Origin: an uncultured Candidatus Peribacteria bacterium | Lineage (GTDB): Bacteria; Patescibacteriota; Gracilibacteria; Peribacterales; Peribacteraceae | NCBI GenBank assembly: GCA_964623835.1 | Contig: CAZUVN010000001.1 | Coordinates: forward strand, 1 to 50,033 | DNA length: 50,033 nt | Reading direction: 5' to 3' | Part shown: positions 12,817 through 27,996 of the stretch, in pieces | Layout: each line of letters begins with the position of its first letter | How positions within the stretch are numbered: the stretch's first letter is position 1 | The notes under the pieces: model-generated | Database searches by the model: none | Seen by the model: only the letters and a program-made list of their open reading frames with translations | Told to the model about the DNA's origin: nothing | Position numbers and translations under genes: made by a program

Positions 12817-13569
12817 ATGAAACGCGTGATTATCCTTGGAATTCCGGTTGATGCTCTAACCCGCTCACAGGCGCTGGAGCGCATCAAATCCATGCTTGGC
12901 GAGTCACGGTTTCATCATGTGATGACGCCCAACAGTGAAATGCTCGTGGAGGCATCCAAGAATCCGCCATTTCATCAGCTCCTTCAACGTACAGATTTGA
13001 ACATTGCCGATAGCACAGGGCTGGTCTGGGCAGCTCGAAAGACCCATCAACATCTTCCCGAACGTGTGACAGGTGTTGATACGACGATCGACCTTTGCAG
13101 TACTCTGACATCCGATCATCCGGTGTTTCTGCTTGGTGCATGGGGAGATACGGCAAAGCGAGCGGGGGAGATCCTCAAACAGAAGAACCCGCAGTTGGTG
13201 ATTGCGGGGGCACTCAGCGGTTCGCCAAAAGAGGAGGATGCCGCAGATATCATCACGCAGATCAATAACAGCGGCGCACAGGTACTTCTTGTTGCCTTCG
13301 GTGCGCCAAAGCAGGATGTGTGGATCGACCGACATCGTGATCAGCTGAAGCACATTCGTGTGGCAATGGGCGTTGGGGGAACATTCGACTTTATTGCAGG
13401 TGTCCACAAACGGGCACCCACGTTGATGCAGAATCTGGGGTTAGAGTGGTTGTGGAGAGTGGTGAGGGAGCCACGGCGAATCGGACGGATTATCAATGCG
13501 GTGATTATCTTCCCGCTATCCGTTATCCGTTATCAGACGGCAAACGGTAAACGGAAAACGGATCACTGA
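12817..13569 (+). CDS. WecG/TagA/CpsF-family glycosyltransferase
   Basis: 250-aa ORF. ILGIPVD.....AL..I, MTPNSEML, NIADSTGLVWA, GAPKQDVWI and LGLEWLWRVVREPRR are family hallmarks. Confidence 0.85.
   Translation: MKRVIILGIPVDALTRSQALERIKSMLGESRFHHVMTPNSEMLVEASKNPPFHQLLQRTDLNIADSTGLVWAARKTHQHLPERVTGVDTTIDLCSTLTSDHPVFLLGAWGDTAKRAGEILKQKNPQLVIAGALSGSPKEEDAADIITQINNSGAQVLLVAFGAPKQDVWIDRHRDQLKHIRVAMGVGGTFDFIAGVHKRAPTLMQNLGLEWLWRVVREPRRIGRIINAVIIFPLSVIRYQTANGKRKTDH
13516..13563. repeat. CCGTTAT-type periodic-arm hairpin
   Basis: ctatccgttatccgttatc / caaacggtaaacggaaaacggat are complementary arms. They encode the last ~17 codons of the TagA-like CDS and sit at a 0-nt convergent junction. Confidence 0.8.
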
Positions 13570-16297: not shown

Positions 16298-16328
16298 CAC
16301 TAGCTACTAGCCACTAGCTGCTAGTACC
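16298..16328. repeat. CTAG/AGCT periodic repeat
   Basis: cactagctactagccactagctgctagtacc lies in the 41-nt gap between wecB and the next gene. Confidence 0.8.
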
Positions 16329-16336
16329 ATTAGCCC

Positions 16337-17755
16337 GTGCTTCAGCGTCTCCGCGAATCATTGGCGTTGTTCCTGATCGCGCTCCTGCCGTTCCATGCAT
16401 TTATCGTGACGGTGAAGACGCGGTTTCTGCTGGGGCCGGGTCATGCGCCCATGGGGGAGATTGCGATCTGGAAAGAGGCGGTGCTGGCGGTGATATTGTT
16501 GATAGCGGTGATCGAGCTTTTATTCAGAATTAAGAATGCAGGATTCAGAATTAGATTCGATCGAATCGATATTCTGATTAGTGGGTTGTTCGTTTTGGGA
16601 ATGTTGGTTTCGCTCGTCAATTCTCAATTCTCAATTCTCAATTCTCAATTTATCTACGGCATCAGGTATGACTTCGTCCCGCTCCTGAGCTTCGTACTAC
16701 TTCGCCGTGTCCCGTGGTCCGATCTCTTTTTTCAGCGTATCCGGAAAGTATTGATCACGGTCGGATCGATTGTTGCCGCCTACGGCATTCTCAGTTTCTT
16801 CCTGCCGCAGGCATTTTTCACATGGCTCGGATACAACGATTTACATTCACTCTATGTTCCGGATAGCCCCATCGCTCCGTTTCAGCAGATTGGCGGCACG
16901 GCACTGCGCCGTATTCAAAGTGTGATGAGTGGTCCGAATCAGTTGGGATTGTGGTTGCTCGTGCCGCTCGCTGCGGTACTCGCAAAGATCCAAGATCCAA
17001 GCCACAAGATCCAACAGAAAGTTTTGGATCTTGGAATGTGTCTCTTGGTTCTTACAGCTCTGCTGTTATCGTTCTCCCGTGCTGCCTGGATTGGTGCTGC
17101 TGTGATTATTGGTCTGAGCTTTTGGCCGGTTTTGCAATCGATGACGCGCAAAAAAGTGACGGGGCTCATCTCGTTACTTGTGTGCCTGATTGTCATTGCG
17201 GTGTTGATGTTCCCGTCTATCTTCCTTCGTTTTGCCTCATCACGTGGCCACATCGAGAATCCCATTCGAGCGATTGAGACAATGATCAATCATCCATTGG
17301 GTCTGGGGCTTGGCACTGCCGGTCCGGCATCCAATCGCACCAGTGATGCATGTGTCATGCTTGATGAGGGGAGTGATGCAAGTTGGGCGACGGCACATCC
17401 GAATCTGTGTGTCTTTGTCGGACAGGCACAGGTGCAACCAAGTAATCGCGATTGTCAGTGCCCATTCCTGCCCGAAAACTGGTATCTGCAGATTGGGGTG
17501 GAGATGGGGTGGATTGGTTTAGCGATGTATCTGGCATTGGTCATTGTTGTCATTCAGCGGTTATGGCGAATTCGATATCCGATATCCGATATCCGTTATC
17601 AGATATCTAAAACTGTTCTTGTACCCGCATTCCTTGCGCTCAGCATCGCAGCAATGTTTCTCCACGCATGGGAGGACAGTGCAGTGGCGTACACAGTGTG
17701 GATCTTGATGGCTACGGTGCTAACACCGCACGCAGTTCGTCATCTGCGAACATGA
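16337..17755 (+). CDS. O-antigen ligase/polymerase-like (Wzy_C-type) membrane protein
   Basis: 472-aa ORF, polytopic, with LLSFSRAAWIGAAVI typical of the O-antigen-ligase domain. GTG start. Contains three embedded periodic repeats. Confidence 0.65.
   Translation: MLQRLRESLALFLIALLPFHAFIVTVKTRFLLGPGHAPMGEIAIWKEAVLAVILLIAVIELLFRIKNAGFRIRFDRIDILISGLFVLGMLVSLVNSQFSILNSQFIYGIRYDFVPLLSFVLLRRVPWSDLFFQRIRKVLITVGSIVAAYGILSFFLPQAFFTWLGYNDLHSLYVPDSPIAPFQQIGGTALRRIQSVMSGPNQLGLWLLVPLAAVLAKIQDPSHKIQQKVLDLGMCLLVLTALLLSFSRAAWIGAAVIIGLSFWPVLQSMTRKKVTGLISLLVCLIVIAVLMFPSIFLRFASSRGHIENPIRAIETMINHPLGLGLGTAGPASNRTSDACVMLDEGSDASWATAHPNLCVFVGQAQVQPSNRDCQCPFLPENWYLQIGVEMGWIGLAMYLALVIVVIQRLWRIRYPISDIRYQISKTVLVPAFLALSIAAMFLHAWEDSAVAYTVWILMATVLTPHAVRHLRT
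16522..16650. repeat. GAATT-type periodic-arm element inside a CDS
   Basis: Left arm attcagaattaagaatgcaggattcagaattagattc (16522-16558). Right arm aattctcaattctcaattctcaattctcaatt (16619-16650). Read in frame as FRIKNAGFRIRF ... NSQFSILNSQF. Confidence 0.8.
16985..17053. repeat. AAGATCC-type periodic-arm hairpin inside a CDS
   Basis: aagatccaagatccaagccacaagatccaac / ttttggatcttggaatgtgtctcttggttctt are complementary arms. In frame (KIQDPSHKIQQKVLDLG...). Confidence 0.75.
17573..17607. repeat. GATATCC/CCGTTAT-type tandem repeat inside a CDS
   Basis: cgatatccgatatccgatatccgttatcagatatc, in frame (RYPISDIRYQIS). Confidence 0.8.
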
Positions 17756-18110
17756 TTGTCGCCTTCTGAAGAGCATCTGGCATTTGTTCAAGGAGTTTTC
17801 TGTGCAGTATTTCCGGAATGATCTGTTGCAGACAGAACAGAACACCGAAGGCCTCTGTATCCACAGTAATGCCGGTGGTTTTTTCGCGCCATCGTGCTCT
17901 TTCAAGACCTTCATCAAAATCAAGGCCAGGTGAAAAAGGGTATGCCCTAAGTTCGGGAATCAACCCATGCAATTCATTTAGCATTTCTCGAGACATGCCC
18001 AAGATTGTCTCTTCAGTTACATTAAAGCGATACTTAGCATGCAAATAGTTCAATCGTTCCACAGTGGACTCACAGTCAGCTTCCGATGTCTGATCGGGCG
18101 TTATGGTCAT
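17712..18110 (-). CDS. hypothetical protein
   Basis: 132-aa ORF. Its convergent 44-nt overlap with the ligase-like gene is the only context available. No recognisable motif. Confidence 0.4.
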   Translation of the reverse strand: MTITPDQTSEADCESTVERLNYLHAKYRFNVTEETILGMSREMLNELHGLIPELRAYPFSPGLDFDEGLERARWREKTTGITVDTEAFGVLFCLQQIIPEILHRKLLEQMPDALQKATIMFADDELRAVLAP

Positions 18111-18198
18111 GATCTAGAAATGTACTCGCTCGTGGTGGAAAATCAATAATGACATTTCAAAACAGAATCGTATACTGCTTCAAACAGATTCTGATCGT

Positions 18199-18232: not shown

Positions 18233-20074
18233 ATGGAAGCCCAGATTCACTCCGGCTCGATTGTCATTCTGGATTTCGGCGGACAGTACGCCCATCTCAT
18301 TGCCCGTCGTGTTCGCGAGAGTGGGGCTTTTTCGCAAATTCTTCCTGCCGAAACGCCGGTTGATCAACTCAAAGAAGTTGCCGGCATCATTCTGTCCGGT
18401 GGACCCCAGAGTGTGTATGACGCAGGAAGTCCGCAGGCCGATCCTGCCATTCTCGAACTCGGTGTTCCGGTGCTCGGTATCTGTTACGGACACCAGTGGC
18501 TGGCACAGACAATGGGCGGAAAAGTCAGCGGCGGAAAGACGAAGGAGTATGGTCATACGCCTATCCGCGTGACTCAGGGTGGCACACTCTTTAATGGATT
18601 GCCGAATGAATTTGTCGTGTGGATGTCCCATGGAGATGAGGTATCGGAGATGCCCTCGGGGTTCGTGCAGGCTGCGTCATCGGACAGCTGTACCAATGCG
18701 GCAATGGCAAATGAGAGTAGGCATATCTATGGTGTGCAGTTTCATTTGGAAGTCGTTCACTCGCAGTACGGCGCGGATATTCTGAAGCGGTTTGTTGATG
18801 TATGTCATGCAACGCCATGGTCAATCGAAGGCTATGCACAGCGCATCGGAACCGAAATTCTCAATGAGATCGGCGATCGCAGAGTGTTCATGATGGTCAG
18901 TGGTGGCGTTGACTCAACTGTTGCATTCACGGTGCTCAACGAAGTACTCGGTCCGCACCGTGTGCAGGGCTTGTTGGTTGATACGGGTTTGATGCGTAAG
19001 AACGAAGTCCGCAACATCAAGAACGCATTCGATCTGTTCGGCATCGATAACCTGCGTATTGTCGACGCGTCTGATGAGTTCTTCGCGAATTTGAAAGGCG
19101 TTACCGACCCCGAGAAAAAGCGCCAGATTATTGGTGATACGTTCTTGGCCGTGCAGAAACGCGAGAGCGATGCGATGAATCTGAAACTGGAAGATGGTTG
19201 GATGCTGGGGCAGGGGACCATTTACCCCGACACGATCGAGACCGGTGGTACCAAGCATGCTGATAAAATTAAGACGCATCATAACCGTGTCGAGGCCGTG
19301 CAGAAGATGATCGATGCGGGGTTGGTGATTGAGCCGTTGAAAGATCTGTACAAAGACGAAGTCCGCAAACTCGGCGAAGAACTGCGCCTTCCTCCGCCAC
19401 TCGTGTGGCGTCATCCGTTCCCAGGTCCGGGGCTTGGTGTGCGTATTCTGTGTGGCGATAAATCGGACGAATTAAGAATGCAGAATGCAGAATTAAGAAT
19501 TCCGAATGCAGACGGACATAATTCTCAATTCTCAATTCTCAATTCTGAATCATATCGTGTGATGCCGGTGAGGAGTGTAGGAGTGCAAGGAGACGGTAGG
19601 ACGTACCGTCATGCCATTGCATTGTTCCATGAGCATGCATGTCGAGTGACAGAGGAAGACCGTCGACTGGCAACTCAAGTACCAAATGTAGTTCCAGAAC
19701 TGAATCGCGTGCTGCTCTGTACGTCGCACGACCATCCTGTCGATTTCATCTTCACTGCTTCCACCATCACACGCGAGCGTGCAACGCTGTTGCAAGAAGC
19801 CGATGCGATTGTCGACGAAGAGATGCACCGCGCCGATCTCTACGATCGCATTTGGCAGTTCCCGGTTGTGCTCGTGCCGTTTGGAACATCGGAAGGGGGA
19901 GAGTCGATTGTGCTGCGCCCCATCGATTCACAGGAAGCCATGACCGCCGAGGCGATTGCCCTGCCAGAAGATGTCCTCAAACGGATGACCGATCGGTTGC
20001 TCCAGCTCGATGGCATCGATTGTGTGTTCTTGGATCTGACGAACAAACCGCCCGCTACCATTGAGTGGGAGTGA
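18233..20074 (+). CDS. guaA: GMP synthase (glutamine-hydrolysing)
   Basis: 613-aa ORF. GATase domain (ILDFGGQY, GICYGHQ), ATP-PPase loop SGGVDSTV, HPFPGPGLGVR and C-terminal KPPATIEWE. Confidence 0.95.
   Translation: MEAQIHSGSIVILDFGGQYAHLIARRVRESGAFSQILPAETPVDQLKEVAGIILSGGPQSVYDAGSPQADPAILELGVPVLGICYGHQWLAQTMGGKVSGGKTKEYGHTPIRVTQGGTLFNGLPNEFVVWMSHGDEVSEMPSGFVQAASSDSCTNAAMANESRHIYGVQFHLEVVHSQYGADILKRFVDVCHATPWSIEGYAQRIGTEILNEIGDRRVFMMVSGGVDSTVAFTVLNEVLGPHRVQGLLVDTGLMRKNEVRNIKNAFDLFGIDNLRIVDASDEFFANLKGVTDPEKKRQIIGDTFLAVQKRESDAMNLKLEDGWMLGQGTIYPDTIETGGTKHADKIKTHHNRVEAVQKMIDAGLVIEPLKDLYKDEVRKLGEELRLPPPLVWRHPFPGPGLGVRILCGDKSDELRMQNAELRIPNADGHNSQFSILNSESYRVMPVRSVGVQGDGRTYRHAIALFHEHACRVTEEDRRLATQVPNVVPELNRVLLCTSHDHPVDFIFTASTITRERATLLQEADAIVDEEMHRADLYDRIWQFPVVLVPFGTSEGGESIVLRPIDSQEAMTAEAIALPEDVLKRMTDRLLQLDGIDCVFLDLTNKPPATIEWE
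19469..19551. repeat. GAATT-type periodic-arm element in frame inside guaA
   Basis: gaattaagaatgcagaatgcagaattaagaattccgaatgcaga ... aattctcaattctcaattctcaattctgaatc. The right arm shares 27 identical nt with 16619-16645. Confidence 0.85.
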
Positions 20075-27912: not shown

Positions 27913-27996
27913 AATGCAGAATTGAGAATTCAGAATTAAGAATTAAATAGAGATTCCGCTTAAAAATTCTGAATCCTACATTCTGAATTCTGAATC
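27913..27996. repeat. GAATT-type periodic-arm hairpin (intergenic copy)
   Basis: aatgcagaattgagaattcagaattaagaatt ... aattctgaatcctacattctgaattctgaatc are complementary arms. Same family as 16522-16650 and 19469-19551. Confidence 0.85.

What the first reader, a model, noticed from the sequence alone, without database searches (positions are those of the whole stretch)
16522..17607. One membrane-protein gene carries three different periodic hairpin elements in frame
The O-antigen-ligase-like CDS contains three elements, and all keep the reading frame open.
- A GAATT-type element with arms at 16522-16558 and 16619-16650.
- An AAGATCC-type hairpin at 16985-17053.
- A GATATCC/CCGTTAT-type repeat at 17573-17607.

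The GAATT arms are shared nearly verbatim with guaA and with an intergenic copy, so these are insertions or expansions rather than ancestral coding sequence. Tolerance of three such inserts in one polytopic protein suggests they fall in loops, or that the gene is decaying.
Basis: seen in the sequence. Interest (0 to 1): 0.65.

Follow-up and report, generated by a model that had tools for sequence, protein, structure and literature searches.

The report
Translated heptamer repeats in membrane-protein loops
An intact 12-helix sugar-ligase-like membrane protein of an uncultured Peribacteria bacterium reads through several ~30-base blocks of 7-base repeats that sit in the loops between its membrane helices, and 80 related genomes carry different repeat blocks at the same loops, so these are fast-changing tolerated additions rather than signs of gene decay.

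Summary
CDS 16337-17755 (472 aa, Wzy_C; best structural match WaaL) contains period-7 arrays at all three places; codon shuffles give 0.0015 arrays per gene.

- Elements 1 and 2 can fold as hairpins (z -3.05 and -4.03). Element 3 is a plain array with no partner (z -0.44).
- The 60 nt between the arms of element 1 is not an inserted loop. It encodes a conserved transmembrane helix (TM3).
- An AlphaFold model (pLDDT 89) puts the arrays in three cytoplasmic loops and one external loop.
- In 81 orthologous genes, period 7 gives 79 arrays against 1-7 for every other period from 4 to 12. 115 of 119 arrays fall in these same loops, with at least 17 different units per site.
- Arrays mostly run 30-33 nt. 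Array-free orthologs have shorter loops at three of the four sites.
- Whole ~32-nt modules, irregular units included, recur in both orientations within one gene.
- The gene is under purifying selection (dN/dS about 0.1), so it is not decaying.

This is one instance of the Peribacteria heptamer-module phenomenon already noted in this scan, a variant of known bacterial heptamer repeats. How the modules are made is not settled. I favour slippage plus template switching or gene conversion, filtered by selection.

The parts
16337..17755 (+). CDS for a 472-aa, 12-TM O-antigen-ligase-like (Wzy_C / WaaL-fold) membrane protein, which hosts the arrays
   Evidence: ORF. Pfam Wzy_C E 7.8e-11, above the curated cut-off. 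AlphaFold2 model pLDDT 89, pTM 0.90. Best PDB match is WaaL 7TPG at E 9e-6, followed by RodA/FtsW. 628 homologs, the named ones almost all Peribacteria.
16523..16558 (+). Array 1a: degenerate AGAATTN heptamers encoding F63-F74 (FRIKNAGFRIRF). It covers the end of TM2 and the cytoplasmic TM2/TM3 loop.
   Evidence: Sequence. The family pattern matches here with 0 mismatches, against 0 matches expected by chance in the window. Loop 67-75 in the model. 23 orthologs hold a period-7 array here, with 18 different units.
16559..16618 (+). Conserved TM3 coding segment (D75-V94) lying between arrays 1a and 1b. It is not part of any insert.
   Evidence: D75, D78 and I81 are conserved in 90% or more of 48 homologs. 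Helix 76-94 in the model.
16617..16650 (+). Array 1b: TCAATTC x4.9, perfect, encoding N95-F105 (NSQFSILNSQF) in the external TM3/TM4 loop. It is roughly complementary to array 1a.
   Evidence: TRF 100% matches. 27 nt identical to the guaA arm at 19520-19546. The 1a/1b pairing appears in the minimum-energy fold, z -3.05. The same unit sits at this site in L002 and L081, which are about 64% identical in protein.
16985..17053 (+). Element 2: an AAGATCC-type hairpin. Arm a is 16985-17014 (K217-Q226, end of TM6 plus the cytoplasmic loop). A 9-nt spacer follows. Arm b is 17024-17053 (L230-L239, the start of TM7).
   Evidence: Inverted repeat of 30 nt, 73% complementary, with a 12-nt perfect core. 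Fold z -4.03, 0 of 200 shuffles as good. Loop 219-224 and helix 225-245 in the model. Nearly identical in L001.
17573..17607 (+). Element 3: a single direct array, CGATATC x5.0, encoding R413-S424 (RYPISDIRYQIS) in the cytoplasmic TM10/TM11 loop and the start of TM11. It has no inverted partner.
   Evidence: TRF. Fold z -0.44. Loop 412-418 in the model. Identical in L001. At this site other orthologs carry complete hairpins built from other units.
16299..16324 (+). ACTAGCT x3.7 array in the 41-nt spacer between the epimerase stop codon and the start codon of this gene
   Evidence: TRF; sequence.
19469..19551 (+). Sister copy of the AGAATTN / AATTCTC module pair, translated within guaA
   Evidence: Absent from the closest relative L001, which has 37 nt where the window has 85.
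27913..27996 (+). Intergenic sister copy of the same module pair. Its b arm, read on the minus strand, shows the same order of variant units as array 1a.
   Evidence: Compare 27965-27991(-) AGAATTCAGAATGTAGGATTCAGAATT with 16526-16552 AGAATTAAGAATGCAGGATTCAGAATT.

Best explanation
**What it is.** The gene encodes a working 12-TM WaaL/Wzy_C-type glycan ligase or polymerase. Four of its inter-helix loops have been colonised by the ~31-nt heptamer-repeat modules that litter Peribacteria genomes. The loops are TM2/3, TM6/7 and TM10/11 on the cytoplasmic side and TM3/4 on the outside.

**Why the frame stays open.** A 7-nt repeat cycles through all three frames every 21 nt, so any frame gives the same 7-residue periodic peptide. 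The frame survives only if the unit contains no stop codon in any frame. That is true of AATTCTC, GATATCC and AAGATCC. It is not true of the exact complement GAGAATT, which is why arm 1a is degenerate. Together the modules add roughly 40 residues of heptapeptide-periodic loop.

**How I think it arises (inferred).**
1. Arrays are born by a lineage-specific preference for 7-nt slippage.
2. Complete modules are then copied, in either orientation, to nearby and distant sites. The likely routes are replication template switching and gene conversion between arrays of the same family. This produces complementary pairs even across a conserved helix.
3. Selection keeps only copies that are stop-free, preserve the frame and suit the local topology. 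Purine-rich arms encoding K and R sit in cytoplasmic loops. T-rich arms encoding F, S, I and L sit at helix starts and in the outer loop.

I infer that the arrays have no necessary function in this protein. They are tolerated passengers that turn over quickly.
For: **Shown directly**
- Period 7 is specific. The 81 ortholog CDSs hold 79 period-7 arrays, against 7 for period 8 and 1-2 for every other period from 4 to 12.
- 115 of 119 arrays fall in five hot spots that make up 18% of the protein (binomial P about 1e-82).
- Each hot spot shows at least 17 different units.
- The model places the sites in loops or at helix ends. The topology agrees with the charged loops and with the Cys-rich conserved domain lying outside.
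- Loops are longer when an array is present at sites 1a, 1b and 3 (P from 6e-6 to 6e-11).
- Turnover is fast. At 80-90% background protein identity, only 3 of 25 array-bearing site comparisons share a unit.
- dN/dS is about 0.1 outside the arrays.

**Evidence for copying rather than independent slippage**
- In L033 one 32-nt module with an irregular unit (AATGGAG) occurs at 1a and 3a. It is mirrored in 1b and 3b.
- Units at 1a/1b are complementary in 6 of 12 orthologs (2.6 expected, p 0.012). At 3a/3b the figure is 8 of 12 (2.3 expected, p 0.0002).
- Arrays more than 300 nt apart in one genome share a unit 6.8% of the time, against 0.7% between genomes.
- Array 1a and the intergenic arm at 27965-27991(-) share the same order of variant units.

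**Other support**
- Array length peaks at 30-33 nt, with almost none above 35.
- Composition sorts by topology. Site 1a is 81% purine with K+R 29%. Sites 1b and 3b are 27-29% purine with K+R 1-2%.
- Template switching is known to create and homogenise hairpin arms, including in coding genes (PMC8794818, PMC8604942; titles and abstracts seen).
Against: - The generating mechanism was not observed.
- A sharply peaked length of about 31 nt is not what simple slippage predicts.
- Gene conversion needs homology that already exists, so it does not explain how a new unit family first reaches a site.
- The ligase-like gene holds 1.41 arrays per kb, against 0.39 per kb in the surrounding DNA, which includes the spacers. 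Loop tolerance alone may not account for that.
- In two orthologs, perfect palindromes that are not heptamer arrays occupy the same hot spots (L025, L051). This could mean that a hairpin as such is favoured there.
- Arrays at sites 2 and 3, with their flanks, are 95-99% identical to L001 while the rest of the gene is about 70-76% identical. Either recent lateral exchange or selection on the nucleotide sequence is needed to explain that.
Confidence: 0.68

Rival explanations
1. The elements are miniature mobile elements, like MITEs, Rickettsia palindromic elements or REPINs. Each would be inserted as a preformed hairpin by a transposase and would happen to land in frame.
For: - The same arm sequences occur at three or more loci in the window, plus at least one locus outside it.
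- Unit families are genome-specific.
- Module size is uniform at about 31 nt.
- The guaA copy is a clean 48-nt presence/absence difference from L001.
Against: - The arms of element 1, and of six orthologous complementary pairs, bracket a conserved TM helix. They therefore cannot have arrived as one unit.
- The Wzy, guaA and intergenic copies share no loop sequence or termini beyond the arrays. I saw no target-site duplication, but I did not test for one formally.
- 288 arrays use 155 different units. Families driven by a transposase have one or a few consensus sequences.
- Single arrays without a partner are common, element 3 among them.
Confidence: 0.12
2. The hairpins are functional cis-elements kept by selection. 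They might be mRNA structures that pause ribosomes so that the neighbouring TM helices insert co-translationally, or DNA/RNA binding sites for a protein that recognises heptamer periodicity.
For: - Hairpins recur at the same loops, directly before or around TM helices, in many orthologs.
- Complementarity between arms is kept more often than chance allows.
- Non-heptamer palindromes occupy the same sites in L025 and L051.
- Sites 2 and 3 are conserved at synonymous positions against L001 (dS about 0.05 versus about 1).
- The gene is 3.6 times richer in arrays than the DNA around it.
Against: - 17 of 81 orthologs have no array at all, and only about 25-50% of orthologs have one at any given site.
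- Element 3 and many other arrays have no partner.
- Units and presence change between close relatives.
- The same modules occur in the soluble enzyme guaA and in spacers.
- The high-identity tracts reach 60-100 nt beyond the arrays, which fits a recombination tract better than selection on a stem.
Confidence: 0.1
3. The arrays are phase-variation switches. Gain or loss of one 7-nt unit shifts the frame and turns a surface-glycan gene off and on.
For: - A 7-nt unit is not a multiple of three, so a one-unit slip would shift the frame.
- Surface-glycan genes are classic contingency loci.
- Heptanucleotide phase variation is described in Haemophilus (PMC8262952, listed).
Against: - All 79 ortholog frames that could be read to their end are open.
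- Copy number is low and uniform, mostly 4.3 to 4.9.
- No length variant appeared in the contigs of four runs, though contigs hide rare variants.
- The same arrays sit in the housekeeping gene guaA.
Confidence: 0.03
4. The gene is a decaying pseudogene that is accumulating repeats.
For: The repeat load in one gene is unusually high.
Against: - The 472-aa frame is full length.
- All 65 columns that are invariant among 48 homologs are retained.
- dN/dS is about 0.1.
- The model is confident, with pLDDT 89.
- The ortholog is present and intact across the class.
Confidence: 0.01

Closest known systems
Heptameric simple-sequence repeats of prokaryotes: the long SSRs of Mrazek et al. 2007 as summarised in PMC4679880, cyanobacterial STRR, Xanthomonas GGGAATC and Nostoc GGGGAYT arrays (PMC4692102), and Beggiatoaceae TAACTGA (PMC4679880)
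   Same: - They are short tandem arrays of a 7-nt unit, far more common than other periods, and dispersed along the chromosome.
- Xanthomonas has 70-75 convergent ('tandemly inverted') pairs able to form stem-loops.
- About a third of the Nostoc arrays lie inside genes.
- A polymerase-footprint slippage origin has been proposed for the 7-nt preference.
   Different: - Those genomes use one dominant unit. Here 288 arrays use 155 units.
- Their array length varies widely, up to 14-26 units. Here it is held at about 4.5 units, or 30-33 nt.
- Here arrays are routinely translated inside conserved genes, at recurrent loop hot spots, and whole modules are copied in both orientations.
Rickettsia palindromic elements (RPE; Ogata et al. 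2000, recalled from my own knowledge)
   Same: Palindromic repeats are inserted in frame into conserved protein-coding genes, are translated, and sit where the protein tolerates them.
   Different: - RPEs are 100-150-nt elements with a family consensus that is inserted as a unit.
- Here there is no consensus beyond a 7-nt unit.
- The arms can flank ancestral coding sequence, and single arms are common.
Template-switch mutations and quasipalindrome correction (PMC8794818, PMC8604942, PMC7202029)
   Same: A replication error copies a nearby stretch in reverse complement. It overwrites the target, so it creates or perfects hairpin arms in one step without target-site duplication. It is documented in coding genes. 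This matches the mirrored irregular units in L033 and the arm pairs at variable spacing.
   Different: Template switching is short-range. It does not explain the 7-nt periodicity, the fixed module length of about 31 nt, or the sharing of modules between loci kilobases apart.
REP/REPIN elements mobilised by RAYT transposases (own knowledge)
   Same: They are inverted pairs of arms about 30 nt long, occur in many copies per genome, and form genome-specific families.
   Different: - REPs are extragenic.
- Each REP arm is itself an imperfect palindrome, not a tandem array.
- A genome has one or a few families, each tied to a RAYT gene. That link could not be checked here.
DNA uptake sequences within Haemophilus and Neisseria genes (own knowledge)
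   Same: A DNA-level drive spreads a short motif, often as inverted pairs. Inside genes the motif accumulates in the least constrained parts of proteins.
   Different: There is one fixed motif per species and it is not tandemly repeated. No link to DNA uptake is shown here.

Membership tests
Prokaryotic heptameric SSR / LSSR (STRR-like) | Tandem head-to-tail copies of a 7-nt unit, longer than chance allows | tested here: met
   TRF. Codon shuffles give 0.0015 arrays against 3 observed.
Prokaryotic heptameric SSR / LSSR (STRR-like) | Period 7 specifically over-represented compared with neighbouring periods | tested here: met
   79 arrays at period 7 against 1-7 at every other period in the 81 ortholog CDSs. 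In 574 kb, 288 arrays at period 7 against 32 at period 6, 48 at period 8 and 55 at period 9.
Prokaryotic heptameric SSR / LSSR (STRR-like) | One or a few dominant units per genome, and variable copy number, as in Xanthomonas, Nostoc and Beggiatoaceae | tested here: not met
   155 units among 288 arrays. At least five unit families occur in this window. Length is clamped at 30-33 nt.
MITE / Rickettsia palindromic element | Element inserted as one unit, with a conserved internal sequence, terminal inverted repeats and, for MITEs, a target-site duplication | tested here: not met
   The arms of element 1 bracket the conserved TM3. The loops of the three AGAATT copies are unrelated. I saw no target-site duplication by eye.
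REPIN / RAYT system | A cognate Y1 (RAYT) transposase gene in the genome | not testable with these tools
Phase-variable contingency locus | Repeat-number polymorphism that switches the reading frame within a population | tested here: inconclusive
   No insertions or deletions appear in the contigs of four runs, but contigs drop rare variants. All 79 ortholog frames that could be read to their end are open.
Wzy_C / WaaL O-antigen-ligase superfamily (the host protein) | Match to the Wzy_C profile above the curated threshold | tested here: met
   42.4 bits against a cut-off of 31.7, covering residues 234-399.
Wzy_C / WaaL O-antigen-ligase superfamily (the host protein) | Polytopic fold of about 12 TM helices with a large external loop, like the solved WaaL structure | tested here: met
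   The model has 12 long helices and an external Cys-rich domain at 301-381. The best PDB match is 7TPG WaaL, E 9e-6, TM-score 0.53/0.60.
Wzy_C / WaaL O-antigen-ligase superfamily (the host protein) | Ligase or polymerase activity on a lipid-linked glycan | not testable with these tools
   Inferred only from the family and from neighbouring genes. A UDP-GlcNAc 2-epimerase gene lies directly upstream.

The most novel reading that the evidence does not exclude
Peribacteria may possess an active copy-and-overwrite process. It could be an unusually switch-prone replisome or repair pathway, or a dedicated enzyme not yet recognised. The process would write measured modules of about 31 nt (three helical turns, 4.5 heptamers) and their reverse complements into permissive DNA, open reading frames included. 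It would then be a continuing source of new peptide segments in conserved proteins. The identical arrays it leaves behind could also act as portable homology, promoting the short recombination tracts seen around arrays 2 and 3.
Probability: 0.2. Interest if true: 0.8.

Novelty: new variant of a known kind. Interest (0 to 1): 0.55.

Why it matters
The result shows, in a natural series of 81 orthologs, that a non-triplet repeat class can be written into a conserved polytopic membrane protein again and again and still be translated. Membrane topology then decides which strand of the module survives at which site.

This makes the gene a clean test bed for three questions:
- how heptamer repeats arise, which has stayed unexplained since the cyanobacterial STRRs were described;
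- how hairpin arms are created and kept complementary;
- how DNA-level drive supplies new loop sequence to proteins in bacteria with reduced genomes.

For annotation, such periodic peptides in genes of candidate-phyla-radiation (CPR) bacteria should not be read as frameshifts, assembly errors or pseudogenes.

Tried and rejected
- **Length polymorphism.** Only Logan contigs were available for the runs that hold the sequence. They show no insertions or deletions. The single 'joint' from 16553 to 16619 is the guaA copy mapping onto the ligase arms. This does not settle the question.
- **Transcription.** No RNA run holds the stretch.
- **Palindromic restriction-site-like cores in the units (AATT, AGCT, GATC, GATATC).** There is no enrichment over shuffled units: 96 observed against 94.5 expected for 4-mers, and 30 against 26.6 for 6-mers. 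Rejected.
- **Stop-free units as a general property.** 92% of units are stop-free on at least one strand, against 86% of shuffled units. The effect is weak and is explained by selection within CDSs.
- **Coding versus intergenic split of arrays across the loci.** My simple ORF caller assigned 94% of the DNA as coding, so I do not use that split.
- **Elevated flank identity around shared arrays as a general rule.** It is clear for the window versus L001 and for L040 versus L044, weak for L004 versus L013, and absent in the other 17 pairs. It is not general.
- **Metagenome scan for the irregular 1a arm.** It returned only two hits, and the one whose flanks I inspected for composition is G+C-rich and unlike this genome. 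Uninformative for mobility.
- **DNA for P0002,** the ortholog closest to the window in the site-1 cassette, could not be fetched.
- **The period-9 TRF row at 16478-16512** (69% matches) lies in the conserved TM2. I take it as chance.
Full report
**The observation**

The open frame 16337-17755(+) encodes 472 residues. It matches Pfam Wzy_C above the curated threshold. Tandem Repeats Finder reports three period-7 arrays inside it:
- TCAATTC x4.9, perfect, at 16617-16650;
- AAGATCC x4.3 at 16985-17014;
- CGATATC x5.0 at 17573-17607.

A fourth array, ACTAGCT x3.7, lies in the 41-nt spacer just upstream of the start codon. Shuffling the codons of the gene 2000 times gives a mean of 0.0015 such arrays, so the arrays are real.

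The b arm has 27 bases identical to the guaA arm. The a arm shares 15-16-nt blocks with the guaA and intergenic copies. A family pattern finds six arms at three loci, where none is expected by chance.

**Are they hairpins?**

- Element 2 is one. It has 30-nt arms, 73% complementary, 9 nt apart. Its fold is better than all 200 shuffles (z -4.03).
- Element 1 pairs in the minimum-energy fold (z -3.05). The pairing is imperfect.
- Element 3 has no partner and folds no better than shuffles (z -0.44). 'Three hairpins' is therefore really two hairpin-capable pairs and one single array.

The exact complement of AATTCTC is GAGAATT. When tandemly repeated it contains TGA. A 7-nt repeat cycles through all three frames every 21 nt, so a perfect complementary arm could not be translated. 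That explains why arm 1a is degenerate. It also explains why the 'open frame' is a product of selection and not a coincidence.

**Where the arrays sit in the protein**

An AlphaFold2 model built on 48 homologs is confident (pLDDT 89, pTM 0.90). Its best solved match is the WaaL O-antigen ligase 7TPG, followed by RodA and FtsW.

The model has 12 long helices and a conserved Cys-rich domain at residues 301-381. Placing that domain outside, and the K/R-rich loops inside, gives a consistent topology:

| Array | Residues | Location |
|---|---|---|
| 1a | F63-F74 | end of TM2 and the cytoplasmic TM2/TM3 loop |
| 1b | N95-F105 | external TM3/TM4 loop |
| 2 | K217-L239 | cytoplasmic TM6/TM7 loop and the start of TM7 |
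| 3 | R413-S424 | cytoplasmic TM10/TM11 loop and the start of TM11 |

The 60 nt between arms 1a and 1b encode TM3, with D75, D78 and I81 conserved in at least 90% of homologs. Element 1 is therefore two arrays flanking ancestral coding sequence, not one inserted hairpin.

**Orthologs**

The protein has hundreds of homologs; those that carry a source name are almost all Peribacteria. I fetched 80 orthologous loci.

- Across the 81 genes, arrays of period 7 number 79. Period 8 gives 7 and every other period from 4 to 12 gives 1-2.
- At a looser threshold, 115 of 119 arrays fall in five hot spots that coincide with the window's sites and cover 18% of the protein.
- Each hot spot shows at least 17 different units.
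- Orthologs with arrays have longer loops at sites 1a, 1b and 3. The shortest array-free forms are 11, 19, 24 and 30 residues, against 16, 28, 37 and 45 in the window. The arrays are therefore net additions of roughly 40 residues.
- Where distant orthologs share the peptide NSQFSIL, their DNA is also an AATTCTC array.
- 64 of 81 orthologs carry at least one array. The gene holds 1.41 arrays per kb, against 0.39 per kb in the surrounding DNA.

**Dynamics**

At 80-90% background protein identity, only 3 of 25 array-bearing site comparisons share a unit.

The closest relative, L001 (81% identical in protein), shows both extremes.
- Sites 2 and 3 are almost identical in sequence, flanks included. 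Tracts 16880-17066 and 17464-17700 are 95-99% identical, with dS about 0.05, while the rest of the gene is about 70-76% identical with dS about 1.
- The cassette 1a-TM3-1b cannot be aligned across its arrays. It is only 37% identical in protein to L001, yet 71% identical to P0002, a relative that is more distant overall.
- The guaA hairpin is simply absent from L001.

The gene is therefore a recombination mosaic, with arrays inside or at the edges of the exchanged tracts. On the window's side, one Logan contig of uniform depth spans both high-identity tracts, so they are not an assembly chimera there. I could not check L001 in the same way.

**Copying versus independent slippage**

- In L033 a 32-nt module containing one irregular unit (AATGGAG) occurs at both 1a and 3a, and its mirror image occurs in 1b and 3b. 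Independent expansion cannot produce that.
- Units at 1a/1b and at 3a/3b are complementary more often than when partners are shuffled among orthologs: 6 of 12 (p 0.012) and 8 of 12 (p 0.0002).
- Arrays far apart in one genome share a unit about ten times more often than arrays from different genomes.
- Over 574 kb from 81 genomes there are 288 period-7 arrays with 155 distinct units. Their lengths peak sharply at 30-33 nt, with almost none above 35.
- Composition sorts by topology. Arrays at 1a are purine-rich and encode K and R. Arrays at 1b and 3b are T-rich and encode F, S, I and L.

**Interpretation**

With high confidence, these are translated, loop-located, lineage-specific and rapidly replaced heptamer modules in a functional gene. 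dN/dS is about 0.1 and all 79 ortholog frames that could be read to their end are open.

With moderate confidence, they arise by 7-nt slippage plus copying of whole modules through template switching and gene conversion. Selection for stop-free, frame-preserving, topology-compatible peptides then filters them. Template switching is documented to make and homogenise hairpin arms, including in coding sequence (PMC8794818, PMC8604942).

Four things remain unexplained:
- the clamped module length of about 31 nt;
- how a new unit family first reaches a site;
- why this gene is so array-rich;
- why non-heptamer palindromes occupy the same hot spots in L025 and L051.

**Comparison with what is known**

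Over-representation of heptameric repeats in prokaryotes is established, and so are convergent pairs in Xanthomonas, intragenic copies in Nostoc and TAACTGA arrays in Beggiatoaceae. Those systems use one dominant unit and variable copy number. This one uses very many units at a fixed length, and it is routinely translated at recurrent loop sites.

The one Peribacteria genome paper I opened does not mention this repeat class. Earlier notes of this scan describe the same class in more than 40 Peribacteria genomes. They include the guaA copy in this window and an ortholog of this very gene. I treated those notes as leads and re-derived the points used here.

**Limits**

- Reads were available only as contigs, and no RNA data exist for the stretch.
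- Topology is inferred from a model and from charge distribution, not measured.

Noticed in passing
window 16880-17066 and 17464-17700, against L001: Two tracts of about 200 nt that contain arrays 2 and 3 are 95-99% identical to the closest relative (dS about 0.05). The rest of the gene is about 70-76% identical (dS about 1). The 1a-TM3-1b cassette is closer to a relative that is more distant overall (71% to P0002, 37% to L001). Together these indicate short recombination tracts associated with the arrays.
   Followed up: partly
L025 site 3 and L051 site 2 (orthologous loci): Perfect palindromes that are not heptamer arrays occupy the same loop hot spots: TGTAGGGGCGCAACATGTTGCGCCCCTACA (30 nt) in L025 and TCCCCTCCCTCGAGGGAGGGGA (22 nt) in L051.
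   Followed up: no
81 loci, 574 kb: Period-7 array lengths peak sharply at 30-33 nt, about 4.5 units or three helical turns, with almost none above 35 nt. This is not the monotonic decay expected from simple slippage.
   Followed up: partly
window 16299-16324: An ACTAGCT x3.7 array fills the 41-nt spacer between the UDP-GlcNAc 2-epimerase stop codon and the start codon of the ligase-like gene. L001 has about 380 extra bases at this junction instead.
   Followed up: no
window 19469-19551 (guaA), against L001: The guaA hairpin is absent from the closest relative. L001 has 37 unrelated bases where the window has 85, a net difference of 48 nt (16 codons).
   Followed up: partly
window 17712-18110 (-): A 132-aa ORF converges on the ligase-like gene and overlaps its last 44 nt. 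The whole stretch from 17713 to 18190 has no counterpart in L001.
   Followed up: no
L082 and L083 (metagenome contigs): AGAATTC-type heptamer arrays with the same irregular units occur on two unrelated metagenome contigs. The flanks of L082 are G+C-rich, unlike this genome. In L083 the array forms a perfect palindrome, AGGATTCAGAATTCTGAATCCT, at the 3' end of a gene.
   Followed up: no
L020 and L042: Two loci with typical Peribacteria orthologs of this gene come from MAGs labelled Methanobacteriota archaeon and Kiritimatiellales. This is probably binning contamination.
   Followed up: no
run X1, window 16747-16971: A second, lower-depth strain (4.4 against 23) that is about 86% identical is present in the same sample.
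   Followed up: no
window 13513-13562 and 17590-17603: The fourth unit of array 3 (CGTTATC) and the bases after it match the CCGTTAT array at the 3' end of the TagA-like gene; both contain ATCCGTTATCAGA. Different unit families therefore exchange pieces.
   Followed up: no
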